A DNA stretch of 64,000 nucleotides from an uncultured Bacteroidales bacterium (GTDB lineage: Bacteria; Bacteroidota; Bacteroidia; Bacteroidales; Paludibacteraceae), in assembly GCA_902774185.1 (NCBI GenBank), contig CACYHE010000003.1, positions 11,997-75,996 on the forward strand. Direction: 5' to 3'. The position numbers and the translations under genes were made by a program. Shown one piece after another: positions 36,255-56,058 of the stretch; position 1 is the stretch's first letter, and each line of letters starts with the position of its first letter. The notes under the pieces are model-generated. The model was given only the letters and a program-made list of their open reading frames with translations, was not told the origin of the DNA and did no database searches.

Positions 36255-36328
36255 GGCCCCGTAGCTCAATTGAATAGAGTGTCAGATTCCGGTTCTGAAG
36301 GTTCTGGGTTTGAGCCCCAGCGGGGTCA
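36255..36328 (+). tRNA. tRNA-Arg (anticodon CCG) with unusual D-loop/T-loop pair
   Basis: 74-nt cloverleaf with acceptor GGCCCCG/CGGGGTC and anticodon loop TTCCGGT. D-loop AATTGAATA has A at position 19 and T-loop TTTGAGC has T at position 56. Confidence 0.85.
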
Positions 36329-36391
36329 CAAAGCGGAAGCTCGCGCCGTTGGCGCAAATTAGTTTATTTAGCCAGCGGGGTCACAAAGCGG
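36317..36391 (+). repeat. 20-bp direct repeat of the tRNA-Arg 3' end (ccagcggggtcacaaagcgg at 36317-36336 and 36372-36391)
   Basis: Exact duplication read directly. The first copy includes the last 12 nt of the tRNA. Confidence 0.9.
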
Positions 36392-36578: not shown

Positions 36579-39362
36579 ATGAAATGTCCTTATTGCGGCT
36601 ATGACAAAATTCAGCCGAACTTCAATTTCTGTCCGAAATGTAAACACTCGTTAAAAGATCAATCAGAGGTTAAAAACAGCACTCCTTCTGATTCCAGAGA
36701 TTCTGAAGAAAAAGGTTTCTTGAATCGCGCATTATCGCGTTGGACGTACGAAAGAGCAGCTGCCGATCCGTATTCCTATGCGCTTTGGGCTTACCGAAAT
36801 CCGAATGACAACCGCGTCTTCTTGGGGCGTTGGCATGCGGAGGGGCATGATTTAACTGCAATCCATCATGCTATATCAGAGGCTAACCGTGCACGCCAGG
36901 AGAACCCGACGGCAGACAGTGTTGATGTGGAGGGTAATATCATTGATTCTAACCGCCAGAATGCGCGTAGAGAAGCGAATAATAATTTTGTGGATACGGT
37001 AAACGCTGCCTATACAGCAGATGCAGCGGCTATTGTGCGCAATAAAGCGATTTGGAAACTGCAAGCCGGTGAATTGGCACGTCATATTGCCCCGGATGAG
37101 TGGGTGTATGTCACTGAGCATCTTGGTGGTGTGGTGATTGAAGAAGGAACGAGTGCAATCATCTATGTGGATGGTCAGGAAGTGGCGCAGATGGGTAGCG
37201 GCATGTATGTGTTTGACGATAAGCGTCAGGATGCTGAGATAGAGGCTAATAAGCGGAAACTGGAGCCGCAGGTGGAGCGTGGCTTCTTCGGAAGAATAGT
37301 GGATGGAATCCTTCGCTTCTTCTCCGGTCATAGAAACGATGAGGACGCTCAGCAACGCGAAGCACGTCGCCGTCGTGTAGAGCAGATAATGGGGCGGTTA
37401 AGAAAAGATACAATCATCGATATTTATCTTAAGTCGGATCGTATCTTCCCTGCTGTCTTTGGTAAGCAATATTTGGCTGATTCTCCGGAGGGATATGCGC
37501 CGTACGAGATACAATCACGCTATTTGGATCTGAAGGTGGGTGTAGCGATGCAGATGCAAATTTCAGATTTCAAATCCTTCATTACCAACTATATGCCGGG
37601 CAAGAAGACGGTTTCTATTGCGGATGTGGTGAAGAGTGCGGATAATGCGGTTTATAGCGTTTTACGCTTCCGCTTGCGTGATATAGAGGTGTCGGAGCGT
37701 GGCTTGGATGAAGCTACATTCAATGCAATCAAGATGCATTTGATGCAGAATGTGCCGAACCTGCTCCATGGCGTGAAAGTGATAGACGTGCTGGATATCA
37801 CAACGGATAATGAGAAACTGAGACGTTTCCGTGAAGTGGAGGGACAACTCTATAGCTCTGAGCGTGAGTACGATTTCTTGCTGCGCACCAATGAGTTCCG
37901 TAATCGTATCGCTGCGGAGGAGAATGACCAAAAGATACGTGAGGCTCGTTCGGAGCAGGAATTGCGGTTCCGTTTGGATGAACTTAATAAAGACAATCTG
38001 CTTCATGATGATGAGTTGGAGCAGTTTGTTGATCTCCTGAATAATCAAAAAATAATCCGGGAAGCTTCTAATCAATCGGATTTGGATCAGGCGTTGTGGG
38101 GAATTGAGCATAATCGACTTGTCTCGAAAGAGGAGTTTGATATCTTTAAACACGATCTTGATAAGCGTGATTTTGATAGAGCGCAGGTTTGGGAGCAATT
38201 CCGTGCGCGTTCTCTGCAGGCGACGGCTTTACAGAAATTGAAATTAGATACGGAACTTGATGTGGCTCATATTCATGCGGTTGACGAGGTGGATGATGCG
38301 AAGTGGGAAACAGTACGTAAACAAAAAGGAAGAGATGCTGAGAAGTGGGATTTGGATGCGGCTATCTATGGACGTAGATATGTGCTGGAGAAACAGCAAC
38401 TCTTGGATAATATAGAACAAGATCGGATCACTGCTCAGGGCAATCTGGATGTCAATAAGATTGAATTGGAGAATGCGCGTCAACTGGATGACTATTCGGA
38501 CCTTCGTTGGGAAAAAGAGCATGCACAGGATGAGAAGGCCAAAGAAGATGCGTATCAGCGCGAACTCCGCAGGAAAGAAGACGATTTGCGGCATATTCAA
38601 CAACAATTGGATATGAGCATGTCGGCTACCGAACGCGGTTCTCGGATTGCTTTGGAGAATATGCGCGCCATGAAAGAGATGGAGTTGGCTCAACTCAGAG
38701 AACAGCATGCGCATGAGCAGTCTATGGCGAATATTGATGCGGATGTACGGAAGACGGAGATAGAAGCCGAGAGCCATATGAATGCCGATCAGTTAGTCGG
38801 TAAAAACGTAACACGTATGGATGCTGCGGCGCAAGCCAAGTTCGCGGAGTCGTTCTCGCATATGAATGAAATTGAGTTAATGAAGCAAAATGCAGCTGAG
38901 CGCGAGAAATTATACCAGGAAATGGTGCAGATGGCAAAAGAGAATGGTATCAATACCGCCGAATTGCAGGCGCATAATGCAGATAAGCAACTCGATATTA
39001 TGCAACAGATGATGGCTGCCTTTACCCAGATGAACATGAGTCAGAATATGGGACAACATGGCGTTGTTAACTCGATGGTTAGTGTCATGCGCGATGTGGC
39101 GAATGGTAAAATCAAAGATGCGAAAGATCTGAAGGAAGAGTACCGTACGCAAATGCAGCACGAGCAAGAACGAGTGGATGAGAATCAACAACAATCGCTC
39201 AACTATACTACGCGTGTCAAGGTGTCGGAAAATGCACCTTATATGGGGGGAGGAACATCCGTAAGAGTAAATGTCGGTACGCGCACTTGTCCTTCGTGTG
39301 GAGAACCAATCAATGACCCTGATTCACTTTGCTGTCCTAATTGTGGTAGAGATCTGAAATAA
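36579..39362 (+). CDS. Double zinc-ribbon protein with SPFH (YdjI/Band_7_1-like) segment and very long coiled coil
   Basis: N-terminal CPYCG...CPKC and C-terminal CPSCG...CPNCG ribbons. SPFH-like strands IWKLQAGE...GVVIEEGTSAIIYVDGQEVAQMGSGMYVF and DIYLKSDRIFPAVFG. About 450 aa E/K/Q/R-rich heptad-like region. No signal peptide or TM. Confidence 0.6.
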   Translation: MKCPYCGYDKIQPNFNFCPKCKHSLKDQSEVKNSTPSDSRDSEEKGFLNRALSRWTYERAAADPYSYALWAYRNPNDNRVFLGRWHAEGHDLTAIHHAISEANRARQENPTADSVDVEGNIIDSNRQNARREANNNFVDTVNAAYTADAAAIVRNKAIWKLQAGELARHIAPDEWVYVTEHLGGVVIEEGTSAIIYVDGQEVAQMGSGMYVFDDKRQDAEIEANKRKLEPQVERGFFGRIVDGILRFFSGHRNDEDAQQREARRRRVEQIMGRLRKDTIIDIYLKSDRIFPAVFGKQYLADSPEGYAPYEIQSRYLDLKVGVAMQMQISDFKSFITNYMPGKKTVSIADVVKSADNAVYSVLRFRLRDIEVSERGLDEATFNAIKMHLMQNVPNLLHGVKVIDVLDITTDNEKLRRFREVEGQLYSSEREYDFLLRTNEFRNRIAAEENDQKIREARSEQELRFRLDELNKDNLLHDDELEQFVDLLNNQKIIREASNQSDLDQALWGIEHNRLVSKEEFDIFKHDLDKRDFDRAQVWEQFRARSLQATALQKLKLDTELDVAHIHAVDEVDDAKWETVRKQKGRDAEKWDLDAAIYGRRYVLEKQQLLDNIEQDRITAQGNLDVNKIELENARQLDDYSDLRWEKEHAQDEKAKEDAYQRELRRKEDDLRHIQQQLDMSMSATERGSRIALENMRAMKEMELAQLREQHAHEQSMANIDADVRKTEIEAESHMNADQLVGKNVTRMDAAAQAKFAESFSHMNEIELMKQNAAEREKLYQEMVQMAKENGINTAELQAHNADKQLDIMQQMMAAFTQMNMSQNMGQHGVVNSMVSVMRDVANGKIKDAKDLKEEYRTQMQHEQERVDENQQQSLNYTTRVKVSENAPYMGGGTSVRVNVGTRTCPSCGEPINDPDSLCCPNCGRDLK

Positions 39363-39368
39363 GCAACC

Positions 39369-40913
39369 ATGTTTACAGGATTAATACTGACGGATACACA
39401 GCGTTTGGCTGATGCGATGGGAGAAAAGCACTCTGAGGTGTTGGAAACGCTATTCTCCTATGTGAATGGGAGCAAGGCATATATTAATTGGGTCATGGTG
39501 GATGCCTCTGATCCAATGTATGCGGATATGAACAAAGAGGATTGGCATGCATATGCTTCCATTTTGAATGATTATTATTTTGGTTTAGGCCTGAAGGACT
39601 TCGGTAATTTTCCTTTGTTCATCATAGGTGGAGAGGATGTTATTCCTATGCCGACGGCTCAAAATCCCTTGCAGGCTTCTGGAGGAGAATTCTTGAGTTC
39701 AGACATGCTCTATTGCTTCGATACACAGAATGGATATAGCGAACTCCAATTAGTGATGGATAAACCGCGCTTTGCTGTAGGTCGATTACCGATAGCCAAT
39801 GAATATACCCTGGTGGATCTGCAAAATTATCTGGAGGATTGTCTTGCGCGTACCCCGGATGGAATACACGTACGAGGTGCAGCGATGACGACCACGGAAA
39901 GTTGGTTGCGTGCTTCCAAAGAGATGATGAGGGATCTTCCTATCGCCTCATTATCTGAAGAATATGTGCCCCTTAACGAGCGCATGATTGTGAGCCCGTT
40001 ATTGGATACTTCCTATCAGGATATGTATGACGGTTATGTACACGAACTGAAGAAAGTGGACTTCCTGGTATGTAATCTGCATGGCTCTGATGAACCCGGA
40101 CATCCACAGTTCTTTGGAGAAGATAAAGAGGGAACCAAGAAAACCATCGCAACACAACCTTCTATGTTGGAGCAGACATGCCCCTTGATTTTTAATACCG
40201 TTGCATGCTATGGCGCTCGTTACACCGGATACGAGATGGACGACTCCATGCTTCTTATGGCAATGGCATACGGTACACTCTTGTATTGCGGCGCTTGCGA
40301 TACCTCTTTTGGCGGTCCGGAAGAGGATGGAGTGGCAAGAGAGGGTAGGTCTGAACTGCTGATGAAACTCTATAATATCTATCTCCACCAAGGACAACCC
40401 GCCGGTATGGCGTTGCTCAAAGCCAAACAGGATTATTACCGCACCTGTCATACGTTTGATAGCGATGAACGGGCGATGTTCACCATCTTGGAGTTTAACC
40501 TCTTCGGATGCCCGATTTTGGCGATGCAACCGGAACTGCCGGAAGATTATCGACCGCTATTGCTGAATAACAGAATAGTTGCGAACCAATCGGTTACCTA
40601 TCAACCGAAGAAATCAAAACCGGTGTGGAACTCTGCTTATCAGGCAGAAGATATCCATGCCTACGTGCAAAGATTGGTTGATAATAATCTTACCCTCATT
40701 CGCCAGAAAGTAGAAAAAGAAGTGTATCAACGTTTGGGACTCGGAAAAGATAGTCTGCGGGTCGTTTTAAGCATAACGCAAAATAATAACGAAGTCGGCT
40801 ATCAGTTCGTCTATCGTTGGTCTCCGCAAGGAGTATATAGTCGGATGGAGATGTGTTGCCTTGTTGATACGGATATGCAGGGTAGCATTGTAGAAATAAC
40901 ACGAACCAAATGA
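39369..40913 (+). CDS. Cytoplasmic gingipain(C25)-like clan CD cysteine peptidase homolog (tentative)
   Basis: No signal peptide. Motif order is LFIIGGEDVIPMP, SDMLYC, PRFAVGRLP, then VCNLHGS (His-Gly) and NTVACYG (Ala-Cys) after hydrophobic strands. Confidence 0.5.
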   Translation: MFTGLILTDTQRLADAMGEKHSEVLETLFSYVNGSKAYINWVMVDASDPMYADMNKEDWHAYASILNDYYFGLGLKDFGNFPLFIIGGEDVIPMPTAQNPLQASGGEFLSSDMLYCFDTQNGYSELQLVMDKPRFAVGRLPIANEYTLVDLQNYLEDCLARTPDGIHVRGAAMTTTESWLRASKEMMRDLPIASLSEEYVPLNERMIVSPLLDTSYQDMYDGYVHELKKVDFLVCNLHGSDEPGHPQFFGEDKEGTKKTIATQPSMLEQTCPLIFNTVACYGARYTGYEMDDSMLLMAMAYGTLLYCGACDTSFGGPEEDGVAREGRSELLMKLYNIYLHQGQPAGMALLKAKQDYYRTCHTFDSDERAMFTILEFNLFGCPILAMQPELPEDYRPLLLNNRIVANQSVTYQPKKSKPVWNSAYQAEDIHAYVQRLVDNNLTLIRQKVEKEVYQRLGLGKDSLRVVLSITQNNNEVGYQFVYRWSPQGVYSRMEMCCLVDTDMQGSIVEITRTK

Positions 40914-42682
40914 AAACTTGTAGTAATTGTGGTCAGTCCTGTCCGGATGATGCAATAATATGTCCCATCTGTGGGGCTGAGTTTGAATCTGTCCCGGGAC
41001 AGTCGAATATCAACATGGGTAATGCCAATGCGATCAGCGGTGACATTCATTCCACCGACGACCATTCCTCGCACGATAGTAACAACCAGTTGAATAGCAA
41101 TAATGCGTCGAATAGTTACAACACCACAAATAACACCACGATTCACGAAGCGCAAAAGAGCGAAAGCACGTTGTTGAATGAGAACAAAATGGCTTATCGC
41201 TTGAAATGTAAAGAGCTTTTTGAGGATGGTCACATGATCGGCAATGGCGAAAGTCAGTTGCGAGAACTGCAGGTGAGTCTTAATCTCGCGGATGAGATTG
41301 CGCTTCCGATCAAGGAAGAGATTCGACTTCAAAGCAAGAAACGCAAGAAACAACTACCGTTGGGAGGAAAGCAAGAGATTAACCAAACCAAGACTATTAT
41401 CGAGCAAAATGTCACATCTGCGTTGCAGCGTCAATTGGTAAAACTGGAACAGTGGATGCAGGAATACGATGATGACTCGTTGAAATCTGTATATTATCAG
41501 ATGGCATCGATGCTTGAGCCGGTGCGATATACCAATCGCTATGAAGACTCTGCAAAGGACGAATATTGGGAGGCATATTGGGCATACATAGCATATATGC
41601 TCCAGACTCGTTTCAAAGAGGCGGATGAGGCTCTTGCGTCATTAGGCAGATGGCATGCCCACTATCCGGAGCAAAACGATGTCATTCTGTTCCTTGCCGG
41701 TCAACTCATGCAAAATGATTCTTTGGAGAGTGCGCAGAAAGTACGAGGCACGCTACCGGCTCATTATTCTCCGAATTTGCAGTTGCTCTTGGATGCAATG
41801 GACGAATTATTGCAAAAGGACTATGAGAAAGAGTTTGTAAGCATTCGTCCGGTTCACGCGTTTTATATCAATTCGTTGTTTACGGAATTTTTTGATACAC
41901 AAAAAGCGAACGGCTTGCAACGTATAGAAGATGCTAAGATTAGAAAAGCACAAGAGGAACAGATTGAGAGGGACCGGCTTCATGAACAGGAATTAGCCCG
42001 GCAGGCTGCGGCTAAGGCGCAAGCAGATGCAGATGCGGAATCTGCACGCTTGGCTGCTTTACAGCAAGATGCTGAGAATATCGCAAAAGCGCAGGATTTG
42101 GCTAATCAGCAGCAGGAGACGGAAGCAGCAGCTGCTGCTCGAGCAAAAGCAGAAGCAGAGCGGATTGAACAGGAACGTCTTGCTGCTGAAGAAGAGGAAC
42201 TCCGCAGAAGAGAAGAAGAAAAACGTCGCCGCAAAGCAGCCCGTATCGCCTGGCTCGAACGAAATTTTTGGTATATAGCGGGAGGAATAATAGGAATAGT
42301 TCTCATAGCTTTCCTTTCTACGTGGGTACCGAAAAAAGTGAAATCGAAAGAAGCGGAAAAAGAATCGCAAAGGATAGAGTTAGATAATTATGAATTGTTG
42401 ATCTCTACCTGCAAAAACAATATTGCTTTGAGCACGACGGATAATCTTGTCCCCTTAGATTCTGCCGCTCATCAGTTGGTAAGAATTAAGCGTGAGTGTA
42501 AGCGTCTTGAACAAGATGCAACTAAGGTAAAACAATTGGACGAACAGTTTGTTACAAAAGCTCGGGCATTGGAGAATACGCTGAAAACTTTAGCAGATCA
42601 TCCGCTTAATACAGAACAAGCCATTGGATGCAGCGAGAAATGTATAAATATTGAATCATGGATTAACTTTATTGATCAATGA
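40910..42682 (+). CDS. Zinc-ribbon, coiled-coil, single-pass membrane protein
   Basis: CSNCGQSC...CPICG, an N/S-rich linker, a helical region and an A/E/R-rich coil. TM is FWYIAGGIIGIVLIAFLSTWV. ATGA overlap with the upstream gene. Confidence 0.6.
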   Translation: MKTCSNCGQSCPDDAIICPICGAEFESVPGQSNINMGNANAISGDIHSTDDHSSHDSNNQLNSNNASNSYNTTNNTTIHEAQKSESTLLNENKMAYRLKCKELFEDGHMIGNGESQLRELQVSLNLADEIALPIKEEIRLQSKKRKKQLPLGGKQEINQTKTIIEQNVTSALQRQLVKLEQWMQEYDDDSLKSVYYQMASMLEPVRYTNRYEDSAKDEYWEAYWAYIAYMLQTRFKEADEALASLGRWHAHYPEQNDVILFLAGQLMQNDSLESAQKVRGTLPAHYSPNLQLLLDAMDELLQKDYEKEFVSIRPVHAFYINSLFTEFFDTQKANGLQRIEDAKIRKAQEEQIERDRLHEQELARQAAAKAQADADAESARLAALQQDAENIAKAQDLANQQQETEAAAAARAKAEAERIEQERLAAEEEELRRREEEKRRRKAARIAWLERNFWYIAGGIIGIVLIAFLSTWVPKKVKSKEAEKESQRIELDNYELLISTCKNNIALSTTDNLVPLDSAAHQLVRIKRECKRLEQDATKVKQLDEQFVTKARALENTLKTLADHPLNTEQAIGCSEKCINIESWINFIDQ

Positions 42683-43440
42683 AAAGAATTGTTTTAGCAT
42701 TAATAATGATGTCTTCGGTAGTTATTACCTTGCAGGCTCAAGGTTGTGTATCATACCTTGAGACGGGAAAATCGGCCATCGCGGATAGCGAGCGCGATGA
42801 GGCGAAATTACTTGAACTGGAAAAATATTTCTTGAATATTGATGCGGCATGCAAGAGCGAAATAGGGAATAGTGCAGCTTTATGTGCAGAGCATGTTAGA
42901 GATTTAAGAAATAAACTCGTAGAAGCAAGGAAACGTGCAGAATTACAGCGTAAGGAAAATGAAAAAAGAATAAAGGAGGAGGAACGCAAAGAATTGGAAC
43001 GCATCCAGAAAGAGCGGGAAGATAGAATAGCAAATAATTTGCTATATATTGAAGGGTATGGTCATCTTAAGGATGACACGAACTATCCTATCGTCAGTCT
43101 TATCAAAGGAAATCTTTCGAAACAATACAAATATAAATATGCGCAAAGTGCTGAAAAAGCAGTGTGGGGTATCTATATTGCTATTGATTCAAGGAATGTG
43201 CGCTTGGTAGAGAATACAGGACAGTATATGGCATATGCTGTACCAATGATGCTTATCAAAAATTTAGTAACGGGAGAGGTTGTTTACGAAGGCAGCGGTT
43301 TGGAATTTGCGGAAGACTATAAAGGGGAAGATGCTAAGTATTCGATAGGCATAGAGGAATTAGCTACTATTCGCAGTGCTTTTAGAAAGACTATTGATCC
43401 GTTAAGTTTAACAATATCAAATTTTATCCAACATGAATAG
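42679..43440 (+). CDS. Exported protein with K/E-rich coiled-coil segment
   Basis: Signal peptide MKRIVLALIMMSSVVITLQAQ and an ATGA overlap with the upstream gene. Confidence 0.55.
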   Translation: MKRIVLALIMMSSVVITLQAQGCVSYLETGKSAIADSERDEAKLLELEKYFLNIDAACKSEIGNSAALCAEHVRDLRNKLVEARKRAELQRKENEKRIKEEERKELERIQKEREDRIANNLLYIEGYGHLKDDTNYPIVSLIKGNLSKQYKYKYAQSAEKAVWGIYIAIDSRNVRLVENTGQYMAYAVPMMLIKNLVTGEVVYEGSGLEFAEDYKGEDAKYSIGIEELATIRSAFRKTIDPLSLTISNFIQHE

Positions 43441-44449
43441 AAAATCGTATCTTATTATAGTTGTATTGTGGCTGTTTAATCTTGTCGCATATGCTGAGTC
43501 TAGGGGAGGGCTTGTAGCTGTCTTTGTGGATGGAGATAGTAATGTGCCCGAGGAATACAAACGCTTGTTACAATCAAGTATGGAGGAAGGTTTGGTTGAT
43601 TGTAGTTATGCTGTTGTTGCGCATGATGCTGAGTACTTAAAGATGTCTCGTGATTATAGTGATTATGTTAGGAAAAGTACCATATCCGAGTTTGCATTTG
43701 ATAATGTTACTTCAGAGAGTTTGGCGGATTCGTTATGCTTCCTTTATATTGTACAATTAGGCAAAGGTTCATATCGGATAGAAGCAACTATGACAGGTTA
43801 TGGTGCAAATGCCTCTAAAAAGAAAAAGACATATCCAAGTTTAGGAGAAAGTAGATGTAACTTAGAAGAGAATACAGCGGAGCAAGTTCAAATAGCAACT
43901 ATAGAATTGCTTCTTAAATTGGGCTTCATAACCCCGGAAAGAAAGGAGCAGATGCTTAAAGTATATAAGGAAAAAAAAACTAAAGCCGAAGAAGATCTAG
44001 AAAAGAAAATGAAGCAGATAGATGGAATAGCTTTAGCTGCTTCTTTCTTCGTACCTGGAGCAGGTCAAATGTATAAGGGTGAGGGTGGTAAAGGTGCCGG
44101 TATCCTGATTAGCGAGGTCGCGTTAGTGGGAGGTGGTGTAACATGTTATTTCCTGGGGAAAAAACAATTGAATATTATGCGTGATAGAACGGTGGAATAT
44201 ACGGCCTTTAATGCAGCACAAAAGAACTACAATACGATGAGAATTATAAGTTATTCGTGCTATGGGGCAGCGGCTGCATTATATATTTTTAACTTATGTC
44301 ATGCGTATTTAATGCTTCCATCTGAAGACCCAAAGGTCAAAAAACGTTTGGGAGTAGAGGAAATTGGTTTCTGCCCTTCAATAATGCCAATCAACGAATT
44401 TTCCAGCCCTTCTTATGCTATGGGCGCCGGCATACAAATTAAATTTTGA
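43433..44449 (+). CDS. Exported protein with C-terminal TM hairpin (PGxGQxY motif, DUF5683/TM2-like)
   Basis: Signal peptide IVVLWLFNLVAYA. FFVPGAGQMYKGEGGKGAGILISEVALVGGGV followed by a second TM. 8-nt overlap with the upstream gene. Confidence 0.55.
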   Translation: MNRKSYLIIVVLWLFNLVAYAESRGGLVAVFVDGDSNVPEEYKRLLQSSMEEGLVDCSYAVVAHDAEYLKMSRDYSDYVRKSTISEFAFDNVTSESLADSLCFLYIVQLGKGSYRIEATMTGYGANASKKKKTYPSLGESRCNLEENTAEQVQIATIELLLKLGFITPERKEQMLKVYKEKKTKAEEDLEKKMKQIDGIALAASFFVPGAGQMYKGEGGKGAGILISEVALVGGGVTCYFLGKKQLNIMRDRTVEYTAFNAAQKNYNTMRIISYSCYGAAAALYIFNLCHAYLMLPSEDPKVKKRLGVEEIGFCPSIMPINEFSSPSYAMGAGIQIKF

Positions 44450-44454
44450 GGCAT

Positions 44455-45753
44455 ATGAAAAGAAGTATATTACTCATTTTGACACTTACTGCATTCCTGT
44501 TCTCGGGATGTTTAAGGAATTTGGAAAAAGAAGGGATAAACCCAGAAACAGTATATAAAGGGCGTGTTATTGATGCTCAAGGTAATCCGTTAAGTGGAAT
44601 TATGATCCGCATCACTAATGATCAAGTGATTTATAATTCTGTCACAACAGACTATGATGGTCTATTCCTACTGAAGGTAGATATGAGCAAAATTGATGAT
44701 AACTACTATGTGCTAATTGGTGATATTAAAGGAGAACATAGACGAGGAAAATTAAGAGGTTTTGGACAGGATGTTTATGACTATGGTGATATTCCGTTTG
44801 TCAATATCAATATACCCCAGATAGGAGCAACTGAACTGATGGATGTCTCATTCAACTCATTCACCTGTCAATGTGAAGTGGCTTCTAAGGGAGGATCAAC
44901 TGTAACAGAAAGAGGTGTTTGTTGGTCTAGTAGTGTTCCTACGATTAAAGACAATGTAGTTAAATGTGGAGTTGGTGAAGGTGTGTATTCTTGCTATATT
45001 AGCGATGATACCTTTGATTTCAACACGATAACCATCTATGCTCGTGCTTACGCGATTAATGAATATGGAGAAACTTACGGTGATTTGATTGAAATTAATC
45101 AAGTACAATTGAATAAGTTCATGAAAATTAAGTTACCCACAGTAGAGACAATTGGACTTACCGCCATGACATCTAACTCCTTTACTTGCAAATGCAATGT
45201 GATATCCCAAGGAAAGGCTATTGTGACCGAACGTGGAATTTGCTGGTCAACTAATATACCAACCATCCAAGACAATAAAGTACTATTCGGAGGTGGAGAA
45301 GGTGTTTATTCGTGCACCGTTACTGGGCTTGATTTTGGCAGTACGACATATTACGCGCGTGCTTATGCCATTAATGAATACGGAGAGTCATATGGAGAGC
45401 CGGTCGAGGTTAATTCCAGTAGAGTGGCATATTTCTCATTACCTACAATGGATTTTGGTGGGTATACCTATCATATCCATCCCGACATGGGAGGCATGCA
45501 ATGGATACAAGGGGAAGAAGCTTGCAATAATCTTGTGGCATACGGCTTTGATGACTGGTTTATGCCGAATAAAGAAGAAATGTTAGCTATTGCCAAGATT
45601 GAGAATGTATTGGATAAAGTTATTAGATATTGGACGAGCTCTGATGCTGGAAGTCCTTATTATTATTTCGTATATTACAATTACGGGTGGGATACTAGTG
45701 ACGCCGGGCGATCGAACGTTTATCATATTGTCCCGGTTAGAAGAGATAGATAA
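44455..45753 (+). CDS. Lipoprotein: CarboxypepD_reg-like domain, two internal ~95 aa repeats, DUF1566-like C-terminus
   Basis: Lipobox LFSGC and YKGRVIDAQGNPLSGIMIRI. Repeated TERG[VI]CWS...YARAYAINEYGE[TS]YG. DWFMPNKEEMLAI...YWTSS. Confidence 0.6.
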   Translation: MKRSILLILTLTAFLFSGCLRNLEKEGINPETVYKGRVIDAQGNPLSGIMIRITNDQVIYNSVTTDYDGLFLLKVDMSKIDDNYYVLIGDIKGEHRRGKLRGFGQDVYDYGDIPFVNINIPQIGATELMDVSFNSFTCQCEVASKGGSTVTERGVCWSSSVPTIKDNVVKCGVGEGVYSCYISDDTFDFNTITIYARAYAINEYGETYGDLIEINQVQLNKFMKIKLPTVETIGLTAMTSNSFTCKCNVISQGKAIVTERGICWSTNIPTIQDNKVLFGGGEGVYSCTVTGLDFGSTTYYARAYAINEYGESYGEPVEVNSSRVAYFSLPTMDFGGYTYHIHPDMGGMQWIQGEEACNNLVAYGFDDWFMPNKEEMLAIAKIENVLDKVIRYWTSSDAGSPYYYFVYYNYGWDTSDAGRSNVYHIVPVRRDR

Positions 45754-45765
45754 AATTTAAAAAGT

Positions 45766-46260
45766 ATGAAAAAGAAAACATATGTATGGGCTATTGTAGC
45801 CATCTTGACTATTTTATGTGTTGCATGCTCGAGAAATCCGGATAAGGATATGACGAGTGTGCAACGAATAATGGGAGCTGGTGATTGTATAAAATGTGAA
45901 GGGTGGTCTTGGAGTAATGGAGAGGCTACGACGACAAATACAAGTAGTGATTTGGAAATGCACTCTTTCTCCTTTAAAGTAACCGTAACAGGCGAGTTGT
46001 CTTTTTATCATAAAATGGAGTCATATTATACCGTTCCGGAATTAGATGTATCAATTGATGATAAAACGTATTTTCATGTAAGGTATGGGTCATATAGTTA
46101 TGACGCAAAACAATCATCTATAGGTGATGTGAAAGCAGGTGACACTGTAACATTTTCAGGTGTATTTTATACTGTAAAGGATATACAAATTGTTGGAGAG
46201 GCAGGGAGTTCTAATCAAAGCGGAACGGAAGATAGTTCCGGTCATCAGTGGGACTTTTGA
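45766..46260 (+). CDS. Small lipoprotein, unknown function
   Basis: Lipobox ILCVAC and a beta-rich sequence. Confidence 0.5.
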   Translation: MKKKTYVWAIVAILTILCVACSRNPDKDMTSVQRIMGAGDCIKCEGWSWSNGEATTTNTSSDLEMHSFSFKVTVTGELSFYHKMESYYTVPELDVSIDDKTYFHVRYGSYSYDAKQSSIGDVKAGDTVTFSGVFYTVKDIQIVGEAGSSNQSGTEDSSGHQWDF

Positions 46261-46291
46261 TGCTGTATTTTGAGGCAGATTTCAAAATATC

Positions 46292-46843
46292 ATGAATAGG
46301 ATAACTATAAAATATCTTATAATTGCATGTGCAGCAACTTTGTTGATGATTCCGGTATGTGCACAAAATTATGGCCCGAAAACAATAGGAAATGCTGCGG
46401 TAGAAAATCAGGAATTAAATGGTGGATATAAAGAAACATCAGCGAATGAAGAGAGATCGAGCACTAAACCGGAGGCGAACATAACAAATGTACGAATAGA
46501 AGAAGGAACGAACGATAGCGGACAAGCAGGTGTGTGGGTTCGCTTCTCTATTGAACTTAGAGGGCTGAATTCTAAAAAATGCTATGCTTCCGCATGGTTT
46601 CATAAGGATGTTGTGCATCAGGCAGGTGCTGATCAAGAATGGGAGTTGCAGATGTCCCCAAATATGGTTATTTGTCCTTCTACCGATAAGTGGACTAAAC
46701 CGGACTTTGCAATGTTTGTTCCGTTTAGTAAAGTGGATATGATTGCAAATGAGGGTGTATATACGTGTGAAATACACATATGTAATACCGAATATGTGTC
46801 ATTAGGGAAATCTAATTCTTATAGCTTTACGATCAAAAGATAA
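46292..46843 (+). CDS. Small exported protein, unknown function
   Basis: Signal peptide IIACAATLLMIPVCAQ. Confidence 0.5.
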   Translation: MNRITIKYLIIACAATLLMIPVCAQNYGPKTIGNAAVENQELNGGYKETSANEERSSTKPEANITNVRIEEGTNDSGQAGVWVRFSIELRGLNSKKCYASAWFHKDVVHQAGADQEWELQMSPNMVICPSTDKWTKPDFAMFVPFSKVDMIANEGVYTCEIHICNTEYVSLGKSNSYSFTIKR

Positions 46844-46879
46844 TTCTCCTCATACTGACAATTATTATACCTTACTCAC

Positions 46880-49861
46880 ATGGAACAGGATCAGAAACAT
46901 TATTATGCGTTTATCTCCTACAAACGTGAGGATAAGAAAGAGGCGAAAAAATTGCAGCACACATTGGAGTATTATAGGCTCCCCAATAAGTTGCGGCAAG
47001 AGAATCCGGAGTTGCCGGAATATGTTCGTCCGGTTTTCCGTGATTTGACGGATCTGGAAGTGGGAGAACTGCCTGAACAAATTCATAAAGCGCTTAACCA
47101 ATCGCATTTCTTGATTGTTGTTTGTTCCCCTCGTGCCGCCAAGTCCCAATGGGTGAATGATGAGATAGAGTATTTTATTTCATTGGGCAAGCAAGAAAAG
47201 ATCATTCCTTATATTATTGAAGGTGTTCCCCATGCGGATGATCCGGATGAAGAATGTTATCCTCCGGCATTGTTGTCTCTCTCTAAGGAAAAAGAATTGC
47301 TTGGCGCGAATATTAACGAAGTGGGCAAAGATTCTGCTGCTATCCGTGTGGTATCGCGTATGTTCAATATCCGTTTCGATACGCTGTACCAACGCTACCG
47401 AAGGGAGAAACGAAAAAATAGAATCATTAGATATTCAACGGTTGCCGTCTTTGTTTTATGCCTGCTCTCGTTCTTATTGTATGTCCTTCATGCCAATAAT
47501 CGGTTAAGAGAAGAGAATTATAAAACATGGGTGAGCCAATCTAAATTTATTATTGAAAAGGCTAACTCATTGATGGACGATGGCGACATGTATCTGGCGT
47601 CTCGATTGCTGTTAAGTATAACACCGAAGGGTAATTCTACGAACCGACCGATTATGCCAGAGTTGGCATGTGCCTTGCGTAAAGTAGAGGATTATTTGTC
47701 GCATGAAAAAGAATCTCCGGTTTCTACTATCGGCCCAGGTCTCGGGGAACTGGAAAGAACCGATTATGGGCTGAAAGTATCTCTTTGTCCTAAGGAAGAT
47801 AAAGTTATAATATATGGGACGTATAGCAATATAATACGGGTATATTCGACCATTAATGGAAAATTATTATATTCTTTAAAGAATCCACATAGTGAGGGCA
47901 TCTATACTTGTGTTTATAATACGGATGGAGATATTCTCGCTACTGCATCTTCAAAGGATGGTATGGCTGTTCTTTGGGACTTGAATACAGGAGAAGAACT
48001 CTATCGTTTAGAGAGCCACGAAAATGCAATAAGGGATATTGTTTTCAGTCCGGATGGGAAATATATAATAACTACAGCAGACGCGAAGTGTTATCTGTGG
48101 AATATCTCGGGACAACTATTAGATACCATAACTGCAAAAAGTCGTATAGTAAAAACAAGACTTAGCAGACGTAGTGACTATATCTCTCTGGCTTGTATTG
48201 GAAGAGTTCAACTCGTTCAAATAGTAGATGATAAATTGCAATTGGTGGCTGATTTTGTACACGATGAAAGGGACTGGGCGGTATATATGGGAAGTATCAG
48301 CGATGACTCTAAATATCTTGCAACATGTTCCGATGATCAGGAAGTAAAGATATGGGATATTAAAACAGCAAAATATCTATATACTTATTCGTCTTCGTCC
48401 GGTTATTTGCGAGATGTTGCGTTTTTGGATGATACGCGTGTGTTGGTTTCTTGTTGCGATGGTTCTGTCGAAATAAGGAATGTCGTGAAGAACGAACGGG
48501 AAGTATATTATACGTCAGCATGGATTATACACACATCATCGGGCGATGCAATTATTGGCAGAGAGATGGAAAATGGTACGACCATTATTAACTATAAATT
48601 AGGAAATGTGCAATTTCTCAAAGATACCAACGAGCAATTACATGCTATAGATGTGAATTATTACACGGGAAAAGCTGTCACTGTAGCATCGGATGGAAAG
48701 GTCAGACTGTATGACTTGTTTGATTGTCTTACGGAAAAGTCAAGAGTGTTAACTGAAGTGGGAGGCTATTATGTATATTTCAATATTCATTCTTTATGCC
48801 AAAATAAAAATGGAAATTTATTATTGGCTGCATATAGAGATAGCGTAGCATCTTTAATAGACTATTGCAGTGGTGAAAATTTACTAATATGTAAAGGACA
48901 TGAGCAGGAGTTGTATTCTGCCAATTTTAATACGCATGAAAATCACATTGTAACAACTTCCTATGATGGCACAGCGCGCGTCTGGGATGTCGAGCAACTT
49001 AAATCCCCTGTCGTATTACATCATGAAGAACCTCTGTATTATGCCGAATTTATCGACAATGATCAAAAAATCCTCTCGTTTTGTAGATCAGATATATATG
49101 TATGGAATGCACATAATGGTAGTTTGCTACAAAGATTAAAAGGAGAGGAGCCTCCTATAAAGAATGATCCAGCAGATATATTCAGCGAATACATTCATGA
49201 TGTTAGTGCCGTAATATTCGATTCTGTTAGATCGTGCATATGGGCTGCTTATCGTGATGGTATTATTAGAATCTGGGATTATAATAACGAAATGGTAATA
49301 AAAGAGATAAAAGCACACCAAGATCCGACTTCAATCAAGTTGACAGATGATTATCTAATATCTTTTGCCGATGAAATTAAGGTTTGGAATGCCAATACCG
49401 GTGAACTTATTTCCGTATTAGACGGTCATGATTATACCATCGGAGACCTCTTAATTCTTCCGAATAGTCCATATCTGTATTCTTCTTCGATGGATGGCAA
49501 ATTATTAAAATGGAATTACAAAACAGGAGAACTAATCAAATGTATCAAAGAGGATAACTCGTGTGGTATAGATAATCTCAGTTTCAAAGACGGGTATTTG
49601 TTGGCGGTATCCGAAGATAATCATATATATGTATTTGATGTGCGGGATGATTCACAGATTTGTGATTATGCTGTGCCGGAGAAAATATACGGAGATGTCC
49701 AGTTTAGCAACTATGATGGTAATATAATTGTCCCGATTACGAGTGGCAAGATCCTGTTATATGACTTCAGTGATATTCGTCAAGTTGTGCTCGACCTGAA
49801 AAACAGGTTGGGGGATTATACTCTCACTCCCGAAGAACGCAGAAAATATTATCTGGAATAA
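46880..49861 (+). CDS. TIR domain - single TM - WD40 repeat protein
   Basis: TIR_2-like N-terminus YYAFISYKREDKKEAKKL...FLIVVCSPRAAKSQWVNDEIEYF. RYRREKRKNRIIR followed by the TM YSTVAVFVLCLLSFLLYVL. Many WD40 units follow (for example LATASSKDGMAVLWDLNTGEE, IVTTSYDGTARVWDV). Confidence 0.8.
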   Translation: MEQDQKHYYAFISYKREDKKEAKKLQHTLEYYRLPNKLRQENPELPEYVRPVFRDLTDLEVGELPEQIHKALNQSHFLIVVCSPRAAKSQWVNDEIEYFISLGKQEKIIPYIIEGVPHADDPDEECYPPALLSLSKEKELLGANINEVGKDSAAIRVVSRMFNIRFDTLYQRYRREKRKNRIIRYSTVAVFVLCLLSFLLYVLHANNRLREENYKTWVSQSKFIIEKANSLMDDGDMYLASRLLLSITPKGNSTNRPIMPELACALRKVEDYLSHEKESPVSTIGPGLGELERTDYGLKVSLCPKEDKVIIYGTYSNIIRVYSTINGKLLYSLKNPHSEGIYTCVYNTDGDILATASSKDGMAVLWDLNTGEELYRLESHENAIRDIVFSPDGKYIITTADAKCYLWNISGQLLDTITAKSRIVKTRLSRRSDYISLACIGRVQLVQIVDDKLQLVADFVHDERDWAVYMGSISDDSKYLATCSDDQEVKIWDIKTAKYLYTYSSSSGYLRDVAFLDDTRVLVSCCDGSVEIRNVVKNEREVYYTSAWIIHTSSGDAIIGREMENGTTIINYKLGNVQFLKDTNEQLHAIDVNYYTGKAVTVASDGKVRLYDLFDCLTEKSRVLTEVGGYYVYFNIHSLCQNKNGNLLLAAYRDSVASLIDYCSGENLLICKGHEQELYSANFNTHENHIVTTSYDGTARVWDVEQLKSPVVLHHEEPLYYAEFIDNDQKILSFCRSDIYVWNAHNGSLLQRLKGEEPPIKNDPADIFSEYIHDVSAVIFDSVRSCIWAAYRDGIIRIWDYNNEMVIKEIKAHQDPTSIKLTDDYLISFADEIKVWNANTGELISVLDGHDYTIGDLLILPNSPYLYSSSMDGKLLKWNYKTGELIKCIKEDNSCGIDNLSFKDGYLLAVSEDNHIYVFDVRDDSQICDYAVPEKIYGDVQFSNYDGNIIVPITSGKILLYDFSDIRQVVLDLKNRLGDYTLTPEERRKYYLE

Positions 49862-49915
49862 AGGATGCAATAATTTAGACACATTTCAAAAAAAAGCAGT
49901 ACCTTTGCAGCCGAA

Positions 49916-50035
49916 ATGAAAAATTGCATAAATCATTTCAAAATGGATAGCACACAAAAGAACATTAAAGCAAGGATTGTAAAGGGCGGAAGAGGTCGTT
50001 GTATCTTCTCGCAAGACTTTGCGGCGTGCGGCTAA
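49916..50035 (+). pseudogene. Truncated 5' copy of abiEi (39 codons) with its own promoter copy
   Basis: 49878-50022 is near-identical to 54221-54365 (promoter plus MKNCINHFKMDSTQKNIKAR...GRGRCIFSQDF). The reading frame then diverges and stops at 50033-50035. Confidence 0.8.
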
Positions 50036-50036
50036 T

Positions 50037-50263
50037 TTTCAGGGCTCAATTTAAAGAAATCACAGGCTATACCCCGAATCCGGATTTCATATAATGTATG
50101 TCCGTTCCTCCGGATTCTATCCGGATACCTTCGTTAAGTGCGCGCGTTGACAAACGCGCGTTCTTTCTTCGTTCATTAGTCCCGAATCTGATTCGGGTTC
50201 AAAACATCGTTCATTAGGTTGGATGCCATCCAACAAAGGGACATGATGTAAATCTTACGCTCA
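50037..50263 (+). repeat. Copy 1 of a ~230-bp repeat (3' tail of a gene remnant plus three stem-loops)
   Basis: It matches 52881-53110 except for one substitution and a 3-nt indel. Hairpins lie at 50141-50160, 50181-50197 and 50218-50234. Confidence 0.9.
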
Positions 50264-50375
50264 TTTTCTGCCGAAATGCACCGAAAACATATATTTTTTG
50301 CAAAAAAACAATAATATTTTTGCACAAATGAAAACTTTTTTGTAATTTTGCAAACATAATTTGAAACCGGAAAAC

Positions 50376-52701: not shown

Positions 52702-52938
52702 ATAGTTACTATTGATCAATGGAAAGAAGATTTCTTAGCTCACATAGGTTCGCACGATTACTCCCTCAACCAAATCCAAGGAGCGGACATCGGTCAGTTC
52801 TGTTTGAAAGGCGAGAAATTCAATATCTATGGCCTGCCGTTCTTCAATAGAGACCCCAATGTGCCAAAGAAAATCGAAAATTTCAGGGCTCAATTTAAAG
52901 AAATCACAGGCTATACCCCGAATCAGGATTTCATATAA
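52702..52938 (+). pseudogene. 3' remnant of an unidentified gene (open frame without usable start)
   Basis: The frame is open from the stop at 52699-52701 and encodes ...IDQWKEDFLAHIGSHDYSL...ENFRAQFKEITGYTPNQDFI then stop. No ATG/GTG/TTG lies near its 5' end. The last 19 codons are also present in copy 1 (50037-50094). Confidence 0.5.
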
Positions 52939-53110
52939 TGTATGTCCGTTCCTCCGGATTCTATCCGGATACCTTCGTTAAGTGCGCGCGTTGACAAACG
53001 CGCGTTCTTTCTTCTTCGTTCATTAGTCCCGAATCTGATTCGGGTTCAAAACATCGTTCATTAGGTTGGATGCCATCCAACAAAGGGACATGATGTAAAT
53101 CTTACGCTCA
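52881..53110 (+). repeat. Copy 2 of the ~230-bp repeat with three stem-loops
   Basis: Hairpins are cgcgcgtt-gaca-aacgcgcg (52985-53004), cccgaat-ctg-attcggg (53028-53044) and gttggatgccatccaac (53065-53081). Confidence 0.9.
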
Positions 53111-53224
53111 AATGACGTTCAGCGCATTTTTTTTCTTTTTTCTTGCATATATCAAAAAAAAGTAGTAATTTTGCAGCCGAAATGAAAGCATAGTGCTATC
53201 ATGATGCAATAAAAATGGATAATT

Positions 53225-54207: not shown

Positions 54208-54257
54208 GTGCCAAAATTTGCACATTTCAAAAAAAAGCAGTAATTTTGCAGCGTGAA

Positions 54258-56050: not shown

Positions 56051-56058
56051 AATTTCTG

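What the first reader, a model, noticed from the sequence alone, without database searches (positions are those of the whole stretch)
46880..49861. TIR domain predicted cytoplasmic but tethered to an extracytoplasmic WD40 array
The protein has no signal peptide. The basic stretch RYRREKRKNRIIR directly precedes the single hydrophobic helix YSTVAVFVLCLLSFLLYVL. By the positive-inside rule this places the TIR domain in the cytoplasm and the ~770 aa WD40 region outside the inner membrane. The bacterial TIR effectors I know of (Thoeris ThsB, TIR-STING, TIR-APAZ) are soluble cytoplasmic proteins. A TIR wired across the membrane to a beta-propeller array, co-transcribed with five exported proteins, suggests signalling from the envelope to a cytoplasmic NADase.
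Basis: inference. Interest (0 to 1): 0.62.

Follow-up and report, generated by a model that had tools for sequence, protein, structure and literature searches.

The report
Membrane-spanning TIR–WD40 sensor protein
A rumen Bacteroidales gene encodes a protein with a predicted NAD-cleaving TIR domain inside the cell, joined by one membrane helix to a fast-evolving double beta-propeller predicted to lie outside it; this layout resembles an animal Toll-like receptor, defines a large family, and I found no description of it in the literature searched.

Summary
ORF 46880..49861 (+, 993 aa) has an N-terminal TIR domain (aa ~8-165), the basic stretch RYRREKRKNRIIR (172-184), one hydrophobic helix (185-205), a small helical domain, two WD40 propellers (~291-961) and a conserved C-terminal tail.

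The TIR keeps the BB-loop Gly (G62) and the W91-x3-E95 catalytic motif.

The layout defines a large family. A search with aa 1-215 found 1380 clusters (50% identity) at E<=1e-30, mostly from gut and rumen Bacteroidales. The helix keeps its position but not its sequence. K/R residues are richer on the TIR side in 224 of 225 members. No member has a second hydrophobic segment. TIR-inside, propellers-outside is therefore well supported, though only by prediction.

The TIR head is near-constant (71-76% identity; dN/dS 0.02). The propellers are hypervariable (18-20% identity), and propeller 1 is mosaic between close orthologues. This is a receptor-like pattern.

- The five upstream exported-protein genes are not conserved partners. 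That operon occurs in seven other genomes without a TIR gene.
- A clade lacking the helix carries the same C-terminal module and must work in the cytoplasm.

Best reading: a single-pass conflict or immune sensor with a cytoplasmic TIR NADase. No function has been tested.

The parts
46880..49861 (+). Whole gene: TIR - basic stretch - TM helix - helical domain - two WD40 propellers - conserved tail (993 aa)
46901..47374 (+). TIR domain (aa ~8-165), predicted cytoplasmic. Alternating beta/alpha fold. Near-constant across the family.
   Evidence: Pfam TIR_2 E 1.4e-13. Secondary structure of the AF2 model. 71-76% identity over 69 homologues. dN/dS 0.02 against the 83% orthologue.
47162..47164 (+). 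Codon of E95, the putative catalytic glutamate in motif S89-x-W91-V92-x-x-E95. The BB-loop G62 codon lies at 47063-47065.
   Evidence: E in 68/69, W in 68/69 and G62 in 69/69 homologues. Profile alignment to AtTIR 3jrn, TcpB 4lzp, BtTir 7uxr and AbTir 7uwg. E208/W204/G174 of AbTir and E230 of BtTir are shown or named as catalytic in doi 10.1101/2022.05.07.491051.
47393..47431 (+). Basic stretch RYRREKRKNRIIR (aa 172-184) on the TIR side of the helix
   Evidence: 8 K/R against 3 in the C-flank here. Family means are 6.2 against 2.8.
47432..47494 (+). Single transmembrane helix YSTVAVFVLCLLSFLLYVLHA (aa 185-205). In the model it is part of one continuous helix, aa 166-233.
47495..47749 (+). Juxtamembrane helical domain (aa 206-290), predicted periplasmic. 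It is also present in the TM-less relatives.
47750..48739 (+). WD40 propeller 1 (aa ~291-620), the fastest-evolving part
   Evidence: Pfam, AF2, Foldseek. 66% identity against 99% for the TIR in the closest orthologue; dS 0.39-0.71.
48740..49762 (+). WD40 propeller 2 (aa ~621-961)
49763..49858 (+). Conserved C-terminal tail ...LGDYTLTPEERRKYYLE (two short helices), restricted to this family
36579..46843 (+). Upstream co-oriented genes of the same block:
- 36579-39362: 927-aa protein with a Zn ribbon at each end and coiled coils
- 39369-40913: C25-like Cys protease
- 40910-42682: Zn-ribbon / coiled-coil / TM protein
- 42679, 43433, 44446, 45766, 46292: five exported proteins or lipoproteins
This is context, not a conserved partner set.
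36255..36329 (+). tRNA-Arg(CCG) at the left edge of the 13.4-kb block that some strains lack

Best explanation
The gene encodes a single-pass inner-membrane sensor-effector with N-in/C-out topology.

Anatomy:
- The TIR domain faces the cytoplasm, where NAD+ is. It keeps the residues needed for NAD+ cleavage.
- One long helix crosses the membrane.
- A helical adaptor and a tandem WD40 double propeller sit in the periplasm.

Proposed mechanism (inferred). The propellers, which vary greatly between strains, bind a foreign or danger-associated ligand that reaches the periplasm. Candidates are phage tail or ejection proteins, or T6SS or bacteriocin proteins from competitors. Ligand-driven clustering is passed along the helix and brings TIR domains together. 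TIR enzymes need self-association to form their active site. The assembled TIRs then deplete NAD+ or make an ADPR-derived signal, which stops growth.

Status of each step:
- Shown by sequence analysis: domain order, the catalytic motif, the conserved hydrophobic helix with its charge bias, the constant head against the variable sensor, and the accessory, island-like location.
- Inferred: actual membrane insertion, enzyme activity, the nature of the ligand, and an immune or conflict role.
For: Architecture and model:
- (pLDDT 87.5, pTM 0.78) show one continuous helix at aa 166-233 and two propellers.
- Foldseek matches tandem propellers such as 2ymu and Apaf-1.

Topology:
- The only segment with negative dGapp is aa 185-203.
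- In the family, 200 of 236 members have such a segment at aa 140-260, and none has a second one.
- The K/R bias is N>C in 224/225 members.
- The TM-less relatives carry an acid-rich, net-neutral linker (EKAEQERxERE...) at the same place. The net +4 charge is therefore specific to helix-bearing members.
- The same layout (cytoplasmic head, one TM, periplasmic WD40) is predicted for Planctomycetota Ser/Thr kinases (PMC11032199).

Enzyme competence:
- G62, W91 and E95 are invariant or nearly so.
- They align to the catalytic motif of solved TIR NADases.

Receptor-like evolution:
- The head is 71-76% identical and the propellers 18-20%.
- Against the 83% orthologue the head is 99% identical with dN/dS 0.02. 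Propeller 1 is 66% identical with raised dS, which points to a mosaic.

Conflict-type context:
- 41 of 186 operon neighbours are other TIR proteins. SIR2, nSTAND1, TPR, kinase-FGE and RyR proteins also occur.
- In the window, RelB/PIN and AbiEi/AbiEii toxin-antitoxin pairs and exported LRR-caspases lie downstream.
- The 13.4-kb block beside tRNA-Arg is missing in some strains.

Family size: 1380 clusters at 50% identity with E<=1e-30, and at least 541 hits in GTDB species genomes.
Against: - There is no experimental or dedicated-predictor topology. The evidence is hydrophobicity plus charge bias.
- A TM-less clade carries the same helical domain, WD40 region and tail. The sensor module is therefore not intrinsically extracytoplasmic, and its helical adaptor looks (from memory) like that of cytoplasmic STAND-WD40 proteins.
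- The frequent partner, a ~95-aa RyR-domain protein, is cytoplasmic and accompanies both forms. It is absent from this window.
- No known defence system matches in PADLOC beyond generic TIR similarity. No phage-defence phenotype is known.
- Cys content (about 1.5%, no even-number bias) does not separate TM from TM-less members.
- I could not obtain a TIR-only structural superposition.
Confidence: 0.5

Rival explanations
1. Same topology, but the TIR is a signal generator like Thoeris ThsB rather than a suicidal NAD+ depleter. On activation it makes a cADPR-type or ADPR-conjugate messenger for a separate effector encoded elsewhere. Candidates are co-clustered TIR/SIR2 proteins or the RyR-domain protein seen in other genomes.
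For: - Pfam ThsB_TIR is among the precomputed hits.
- PADLOC ThsB models give weak hits.
- Family members usually sit among other TIR, SIR2-TIR and RyR genes.
- Many new Thoeris types with varied effectors have been described (doi 10.64898/2025.12.03.692087).
Against: - No SLOG, Macro, SIR2 or other Thoeris-type effector is in this operon or window.
- ThsB hits are partial and weak (E 5.5e-7 to 1.5e-3).
- Sensor-TIR fusions characterised so far (SARM1, TIR-STING, TIR-SAVED; from memory) act by NAD+ depletion.
Confidence: 0.2
2. One reading: a housekeeping or envelope-stress relay tied to this operon. The periplasmic WD40 array binds the five co-encoded exported proteins (or the exported LRR-caspase) and reports their state to the cytoplasmic TIR.
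For: - Tight co-orientation suggests one transcript (overlaps of 4 bp to gaps of 37 bp).
- The whole 36.4-49.9 kb block is gained or lost as one unit in metagenomes.
- Metatranscriptome contigs map to both upstream genes and the TIR gene.
Against: - The upstream operon occurs in 7 other genomes at 55-65% identity with no TIR gene.
- The 83% orthologue has wholly different upstream genes.
- In other strains the exported-lipoprotein genes (~44.3-46.3 kb) are replaced while the TIR gene stays above 95% identical.
- The family-wide neighbours are cytoplasmic conflict-type proteins.
Confidence: 0.15
3. The hydrophobic helix does not separate compartments. The whole protein is cytoplasmic or peripheral, and the helix serves as an oligomerisation or membrane-docking element. 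It would then be an ordinary cytosolic TIR-WD40 sensor.
For: - TM-less homologues with an identical downstream module exist.
- Canonical WD40 arrays are mostly cytoplasmic.
- Cys content does not differ between the two forms.
Against: - The segment is 21 uncharged residues with dGapp -1.6 kcal/mol and no helix breaker that would allow a re-entrant hairpin.
- Hydrophobicity is conserved while sequence is not (19% identity).
- Charge asymmetry holds in 224/225 members.
- A uniformly hydrophobic helix inside a soluble protein, with 788 residues after it, has no evident alternative fate.
Confidence: 0.08

Closest known systems
Animal Toll-like receptors (LRR ectodomain - one TM - cytoplasmic TIR)
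   Same: A repeat-built sensor sits outside the membrane, a single-pass helix crosses it, and a TIR domain sits inside. The sensor diversifies while the TIR stays conserved.
   Different: - The domain order is inverted: the TIR is N-terminal and there is no signal peptide.
- The sensor is a WD40 propeller, not LRR.
- This TIR keeps the catalytic Glu and is probably an enzyme rather than a scaffold.
- The resemblance is an analogy in layout. There is no evidence of shared descent of the architecture.
Bacterial and plant TIR-STAND(NBD)-WD40/TPR/LRR receptors (NLR-like; PMC9153377, PMC7159879)
   Same: Both have an N-terminal TIR effector and C-terminal superstructure-forming repeats as sensor. 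Both sit in conflict-island contexts. The TM-less relatives of this family look closest to these receptors.
   Different: There is no NTPase domain. Only a TM helix plus an 85-aa helical domain lies between the TIR and the WD40 region. The sensor is predicted to lie outside the cytoplasm.
Ser/Thr kinase - TM - WD40/TPR proteins of Planctomycetota (PMC11032199)
   Same: A cytoplasmic catalytic head, one TM helix and a long WD40 array predicted to be periplasmic.
   Different: The head is a kinase rather than a TIR, the phylum differs, and no hypervariable-sensor or immune context was reported.
Soluble sensor-TIR fusions: SARM1, TIR-STING, TIR-SAVED, TIR-APAZ (SPARTA), Thoeris ThsB
   Same: All have a TIR with a catalytic Glu whose activity depends on oligomerisation after a sensor domain is triggered. 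That is the mechanism I propose here.
   Different: All of these are cytoplasmic and sense nucleotides, nucleic acids or phage proteins inside the cell. None has a membrane helix between sensor and TIR.
Envelope-sensing anti-phage systems such as Zorya (PMC11890865), and the EACC1 caspase-TM-extracellular-PBP proteins (PMC7159879, section 33)
   Same: The idea of detecting an event at or beyond the inner membrane and answering with a cytoplasmic effector.
   Different: The proteins are unrelated and the systems have several components. There is no TIR-WD40 fusion.

Membership tests
TIR domain (Pfam TIR_2, PF13676), NADase-competent subset | Significant match to the family profile | tested here: met
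   E 1.4e-13, 51.8 bits against a cut-off of 28, aa 11-116
TIR domain (Pfam TIR_2, PF13676), NADase-competent subset | Catalytic Glu in the W-x-x-x-E motif after strand C, plus the BB-loop Gly | tested here: met
   - W91 and E95 are each conserved in 68/69 homologues, and G62 in 69/69.
- They align to the corresponding motif of 3jrn, 4lzp, 7uxr and 7uwg.
- The roles of these residues are given.
- The test is by sequence profile only. No structural superposition was obtained.
TIR domain (Pfam TIR_2, PF13676), NADase-competent subset | NAD+ cleavage activity | not testable with these tools
   Needs an enzyme assay of aa 1-170 with and without E95A
WD40 beta-propeller | WD40 repeat profile and propeller fold | tested here: met
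   - PF00400 scores E 1.4e-44, 149 bits against a cut-off of 27.
- The AF2 model shows about 15 four-stranded blades in two propellers.
- Foldseek E is 6e-35 to 2ymu and 3e-31 to Apaf-1.
Bitopic N-in/C-out (type II) inner-membrane protein | No signal peptide, exactly one insertion-competent hydrophobic segment, and positive charge on the N-side | tested here: met
Bitopic N-in/C-out (type II) inner-membrane protein | Experimentally or predictor-verified location of the C-terminal domain | not testable with these tools
   DeepTMHMM or TOPCONS and reporter fusions were not available
Thoeris (ThsB + ThsA) | A TIR protein next to a ThsA-type effector (SIR2/SLOG, Macro-TM and others) | tested here: not met
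   No such domain appears in any ORF of the operon or window. PADLOC ThsB hits are weak and partial.
STAND/NLR-like TIR-NBD-repeat receptors | A central P-loop NTPase (NACHT, NB-ARC or nSTAND) | tested here: not met
   There is no NTPase hit. aa 166-290 is a helix plus a small helical domain.
Toll-like receptors | Signal peptide, LRR ectodomain, TM helix, C-terminal TIR | tested here: not met
   The order is inverted, the sensor is WD40 instead of LRR, and there is no signal peptide. The likeness is in layout only.

The most novel reading that the evidence does not exclude
Gut and rumen Bacteroidales carry a large, unrecognised class of Toll-like-receptor-style pattern-recognition receptors. 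A hypervariable periplasmic WD40 double propeller detects invaders at the envelope stage, such as phage tail or ejection proteins or a competitor's injected proteins. It switches on a cytoplasmic TIR NADase across the membrane by ligand-induced clustering. A sister clade without the helix does the same job in the cytoplasm.
Probability: 0.3. Interest if true: 0.85.

Novelty: new variant of a known kind. Interest (0 to 1): 0.64.

Why it matters
All bacterial TIR immune proteins characterised so far sense their trigger inside the cell. If this topology and an immune role are borne out, sensing would move to the periplasm, before or at genome entry. It would also give bacteria a receptor laid out like a Toll-like receptor: repeats outside, one helix, TIR inside.

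The family is large (1380 clusters at 50% identity) and concentrated in gut and rumen Bacteroidales. Defence against crAss-like and other phages in these bacteria is still poorly mapped.

The paired TM and TM-less clades form a natural experiment on how one sensor-effector design is redeployed between compartments.

The near-identical TIR head with swappable propellers suggests a tractable system for finding ligands.

Tried and rejected
One attempt was blocked by two disallowed rows and two by the tool being unavailable. The catalytic-Glu check therefore rests on profile alignments, not a structural superposition.
- A Foldseek search of the full-length model returned only WD40 propellers, as expected, and says nothing about the TIR.
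- There are no DNA-level tandem repeats in the WD40 region. The blades are not recently homogenised repeats.
- The comparison of Cys content and even/odd Cys count between TM and TM-less members was uninformative (p=0.25). From memory, anaerobic Bacteroidales lack the usual disulfide machinery, so this test has little power here.
- PADLOC on the protein, its operon and 143 family neighbours gave only generic TIR similarity. No catalogued system matched.
- NCBIfam gave no family name for any of the ten proteins scanned (the TIR protein, eight upstream operon proteins and the downstream LRR-caspase); every hit was below its cut-off.
- Phage records had no match. Plasmids gave only weak TIR hits on rhizobial megaplasmids.
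- Six literature searches and seven papers read gave no description of a TIR-TM-WD40 protein. Burroughs et al. 2015 is not in the library, so an earlier mention there cannot be excluded.
- I considered that a 'goes back 13405' joint in run X2 meant a circular excised form. I rejected this. The contig simply carries a copy of the ~30-nt promoter-like repeat ahead of the operon in another genomic context.
- I looked for an integrase to define a mobile element and found none in the window.
Full report
**1. What is there**

The ORF at 46880..49861 (+) is real and encodes 993 aa. Pfam finds a TIR_2 domain at aa 11-116 (E 1.4e-13, above the curated cut-off). WD40 and beta-propeller models hit across aa ~290-960.

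The N-terminus is hydrophilic and runs straight into the first TIR strand, so there is no signal peptide. The hydrophobic run YSTVAVFVLCLLSFLLYVLHA is aa 185-205.

That run is the only hydrophobic segment in the protein:
- Its Kyte-Doolittle mean is 2.38.
- On the Hessa biological scale (values recalled from memory) its insertion energy is -1.64 kcal/mol. The next best segment scores +9.3.

An AlphaFold2 model built on 69 homologues is confident (pLDDT 87.5, pTM 0.78). It shows:
- a beta/alpha TIR fold at aa 10-162;
- one unbroken helix at aa 166-233 that contains the basic stretch and the hydrophobic run;
- a small helical domain at aa 237-275;
- about 15 four-stranded blades forming two propellers (~295-620 and ~623-961);
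- two short C-terminal helices.

Foldseek matches tandem propellers such as 2ymu and the Apaf-1 sensor.

**2. The TIR looks catalytically competent**

A profile of the TIR heads aligns to several solved TIR structures: plant AtTIR (3jrn, E 2e-5), Brucella TcpB/BtpA (4lzp), Bacteroides BtTir (7uxr) and Acinetobacter AbTir (7uwg, 8g83).

In every printed alignment the query motif S-x-W91-V-x-x-E95 lies on the W-x-x-x-E motif of the target. G62 lies on the BB-loop Gly. AbTir was not among the five alignments printed; its W204-x3-E208 spacing matches W91-x3-E95.

The structural paper on AbTir and BtTir gives the roles of these residues (doi 10.1101/2022.05.07.491051):
- E208 (AbTir) and E230 (BtTir) are named as the catalytic glutamate.
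- E208A is dead.
- W204A and G174A are impaired.

Across 69 homologues, G62 is invariant, and W91 and E95 are each present in 68. The refutation condition 'lacks the catalytic Glu' is therefore not met. This rests on sequence profiles. I could not get a TIR-only model for a structural superposition.

**3. It is a family, and the family supports the topology**

- The word-indexed search found 771 relatives with E <= 1e-5.
- A full HMMER scan with aa 1-215 found 1380 clusters (50% identity) at E <= 1e-30.
- A scan of GTDB species genomes found at least 541 encoding stretches. Nearly all come from gut and rumen Bacteroidales: Prevotella, Bacteroidaceae, Alistipes, Muribaculaceae and Paludibacteraceae. 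A few come from Verrucomicrobia, Chitinophagaceae and Alphaproteobacteria.
- Of 58 sampled representatives, 46 have Pfam-detectable WD40 propellers. No other C-terminal domain type recurs among the 25 most frequent families listed.
- Some members have C-terminal regions too diverged for Pfam.

The hydrophobic helix sits at aa ~180-205 in 110 of the best 120 hits and in 115 of 116 further representatives. Its sequence is only 19% identical to the window protein, against 71-76% for the TIR. This is what a real membrane anchor looks like.

In the 15 residues on either side, K+R averages 6.2 on the TIR side and 2.8 on the WD40 side. The TIR side is richer in 109/110 and 115/115 members. No member has a second insertion-competent segment that could bring the C-terminus back inside.

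By the positive-inside rule, the TIR is cytoplasmic and the ~788 residues after the helix are periplasmic. NAD+ is a cytoplasmic substrate, which fits.

The same layout (cytoplasmic head, one TM helix, periplasmic WD40 array by DeepTMHMM) has been reported for Planctomycetota Ser/Thr kinases (PMC11032199). Exported WD40 arrays therefore have precedent.

**4.

Ten of the best 120 homologues lack the helix. In them the TIR head joins through an acid-rich, roughly net-neutral helix (…WNRYEKEKAEQERLEREKRDN…) to the same three elements:
- the same helical domain (SRFIAEKA…RPYTPEAE…);
- a WD40 array;
- the same C-terminal tail (…LTPEERRKYYLD).

These proteins must be wholly cytoplasmic. Two things follow:
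- The sensor module is not intrinsically extracytoplasmic.
- The net +4 charge before the helix is specific to helix-bearing members. This serves as an internal control that strengthens the positive-inside argument.

The TM-less proteins share a distinct TIR-head variant, which suggests one or a few switches between forms.

**5. Receptor-like evolution**

Across the family the TIR head is 71-76% identical to the window protein. The propellers are 18-20% identical.

Comparison with the closest orthologue (83% overall, locus L002):

| Segment | Identity | dN/dS | dS |
|---|---|---|---|
| TIR head | 99% | 0.02 | 0.12 |
| Basic stretch + TM helix | 100% | 0.27 (aa 173-290) | 0.12 (aa 173-290) |
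| Propeller 1 | 66% | 0.41 | 0.39-0.71 |
| Propeller 2 | 89% | 0.20 | 0.25 |

The raised dS in propeller 1 points to a recombined, fast-changing segment. A constant effector with a swappable, diversifying sensor is the pattern of immune receptors.

**6. Context**

In the window the gene is the last of ten tightly packed co-oriented genes, 36579-49861:
- a 927-aa protein with a Zn ribbon at each end and coiled coils;
- a cytoplasmic C25-like Cys protease that keeps His and Cys motifs;
- a Zn-ribbon / coiled-coil / TM protein;
- five proteins with signal-peptide or lipoprotein N-termini.

That operon is conserved at 55-65% identity in seven other Bacteroidales genomes, and none has a TIR gene. 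The 83% orthologue of the TIR protein instead follows PP2C, FHA, caspase, kinase-FGE-sulfatase and several Zn-ribbon-TM genes.

Over 77 genomes, 41 of 186 operon neighbours are other TIR proteins and 17 are small RyR-domain proteins. The three RyR-domain proteins translated have no signal peptide. SIR2-TIR, nSTAND1, TPR, PrsW and kinases also occur. PADLOC recognises only generic TIR similarity.

The TIR-TM-WD40 gene is therefore a self-contained module that lands in varied conflict-type islands. The five exported proteins are not its conserved partners.

The window's island also carries RelB/PIN and AbiEi/AbiEii toxin-antitoxin pairs and two exported LRR-caspases.

The organism lives in the bovine gut or rumen. 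The 13.4-kb block begins just after tRNA-Arg(CCG). Contigs from three metagenome runs join ~36.42-36.46 kb directly to ~49.88-49.90 kb, so some strains lack the block.

A few metatranscriptome contigs map inside the gene. This is weak evidence of transcription.

**7. Mechanism**

Shown:
- domain order;
- intact catalytic motif;
- one conserved membrane helix with strong charge asymmetry;
- a continuous helix linking the two sides in the model;
- a constant TIR against variable propellers;
- an accessory, conflict-island location.

Inferred: the periplasmic propellers bind a variable ligand. Binding clusters the receptors. The helix passes this on to the TIR domains, which need self-association to form their active site (established for SARM1, AbTir, TIR-STING and TIR-SAVED; from memory). 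NAD+ is then depleted, or a signal nucleotide is made.

I put topology at about 0.85, catalytic competence at about 0.75, a conflict or immune role at about 0.6, and the whole statement at about 0.5.

Rivals:
- a Thoeris-like signalling role for the TIR (0.2);
- a helix that does not span the membrane (0.08).

**8. Novelty**

Public databases call these proteins only 'TIR domain-containing protein'. Neither PADLOC nor NCBIfam has a specific model. None of the searchable papers describes TIR and WD40 separated by a membrane helix.

Each element is known on its own: TIR NADases, WD40 sensors, single-pass receptors. TIR-NBD-WD40 proteins and kinase-TM-WD40 proteins are also described.

I therefore rate it a new variant of a known kind. 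It is of real interest because it would place TIR-based sensing at the envelope and gives a Toll-like-receptor-style layout in bacteria. Everything about function is still prediction.

Noticed in passing
Proteins P0021, P0054, P0059, P0065, P0076, P0078, P0081, P0092, P0107, P0109; locus L085:10001-12586: A clade of the same family lacks the membrane helix. The TIR head is joined by an acidic helix (EKAEQERxERE...) to the same helical domain, WD40 array and C-terminal tail. These look like soluble cytoplasmic twins of the membrane form.
   Followed up: partly
L004:13128-13418, L006:12596-12886, L085:12601-12885, L042:15388-15684: A ~95-aa RyR-domain protein with no signal peptide follows family members of both TM and TM-less type. 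Among operon neighbours, 17 of 186 are RyR-domain proteins. None is present in this window. A possible cytoplasmic partner of the TIR head.
   Followed up: partly
window 36579-46843; loci L086-L092: The upstream operon is conserved at 55-65% identity in seven other Bacteroidales MAGs without any TIR gene. It holds a 927-aa protein with Zn ribbons at both ends and long coiled coils, a cytoplasmic C25-like Cys protease, a Zn-ribbon/coiled-coil/TM protein, and exported proteins. It has no Pfam or NCBIfam name and may be an uncharacterised system in its own right.
   Followed up: partly
window 36255-36329 and 36419-49898: tRNA-Arg(CCG) lies directly upstream of the operon. Metagenome contigs in three runs join ~36419/36459 to ~49880/49898 through short fillers. 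Some strains therefore lack the whole 13.4-kb block, TIR gene included.
   Followed up: partly
window ~42700-46350: In three other bovine-gut metagenomes both ends of the block are covered at >=95% identity, including the TIR gene. The middle, which carries the exported-protein and lipoprotein genes, is not. That middle seems to be replaced between strains.
   Followed up: no
window 49880-50263, 52878-53187, 54221-54364: Direct repeats of 99-137 nt at 99-100% identity flank the LRR-caspase plus 292-aa gene pair (50361-52609). A remnant of the DUF6088 (AbiEi-like) N-terminus sits at 49916-50035. It copies 54255-54364 at 94% identity. This looks like a cassette insertion or duplication between the TIR gene and RelB/PIN. 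The orthologue in L002 has RelB/PIN directly after the TIR gene.
   Followed up: partly
window 49880-49921, 50292-50333, 53146-53187, 54221-54262: A 42-nt element occurs four times, each just before an ATGAAA start. It contains TAnnTTTG, which I recall as the Bacteroides -7 promoter box. The bin that contains it reaches 450-700x depth in metagenomes, so it is a widespread promoter/5'UTR module.
   Followed up: no
window 49763-49858 (aa 962-993): The conserved C-terminal tail FPPLQELI..R..F..R.LTxEERRxYYLE is restricted to this family. One other TIR protein also has it (L039:7325-8332). Its function is unexplained.
   Followed up: partly
window 50361-51755 and 56014-58197: Two paralogous proteins combine BspA-type LRR repeats and a caspase (C14) domain; the first has a signal peptide. 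They would be extracytoplasmic caspases. The first gives a sub-threshold hit to NCBIfam 'caspase, EACC1-associated type'.
   Followed up: no
window 53225-53925 and 54168-55900: Two toxin-antitoxin pairs lie downstream of the TIR gene: RelB/PIN and DUF6088(AbiEi-like)/AbiEii.
   Followed up: no
L002:1-9850: The closest orthologue's gene follows a long array: PP2C, FHA, caspase, kinase-TM-FGE-sulfatase, kinase-Zn-ribbon, Zn-ribbon-FKBP, Zn-ribbon-TonB_C, Zn-ribbon proteins and another kinase. Many of these also look like a cytoplasmic head joined by a TM helix to a periplasmic domain. This suggests a wider set of trans-envelope signalling proteins in these islands.
   Followed up: no
window 24-21686; 33283-33771: Housekeeping surroundings. 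There is a SusC/SusD polysaccharide-utilisation locus with GH16, GH30, GH81 and GH3 enzymes, probably for beta-glucan. tmRNA plus tRNA-Ala lie at 33283-33771. GC falls from ~0.50 there to 0.37-0.40 across 42-50 kb.
   Followed up: no
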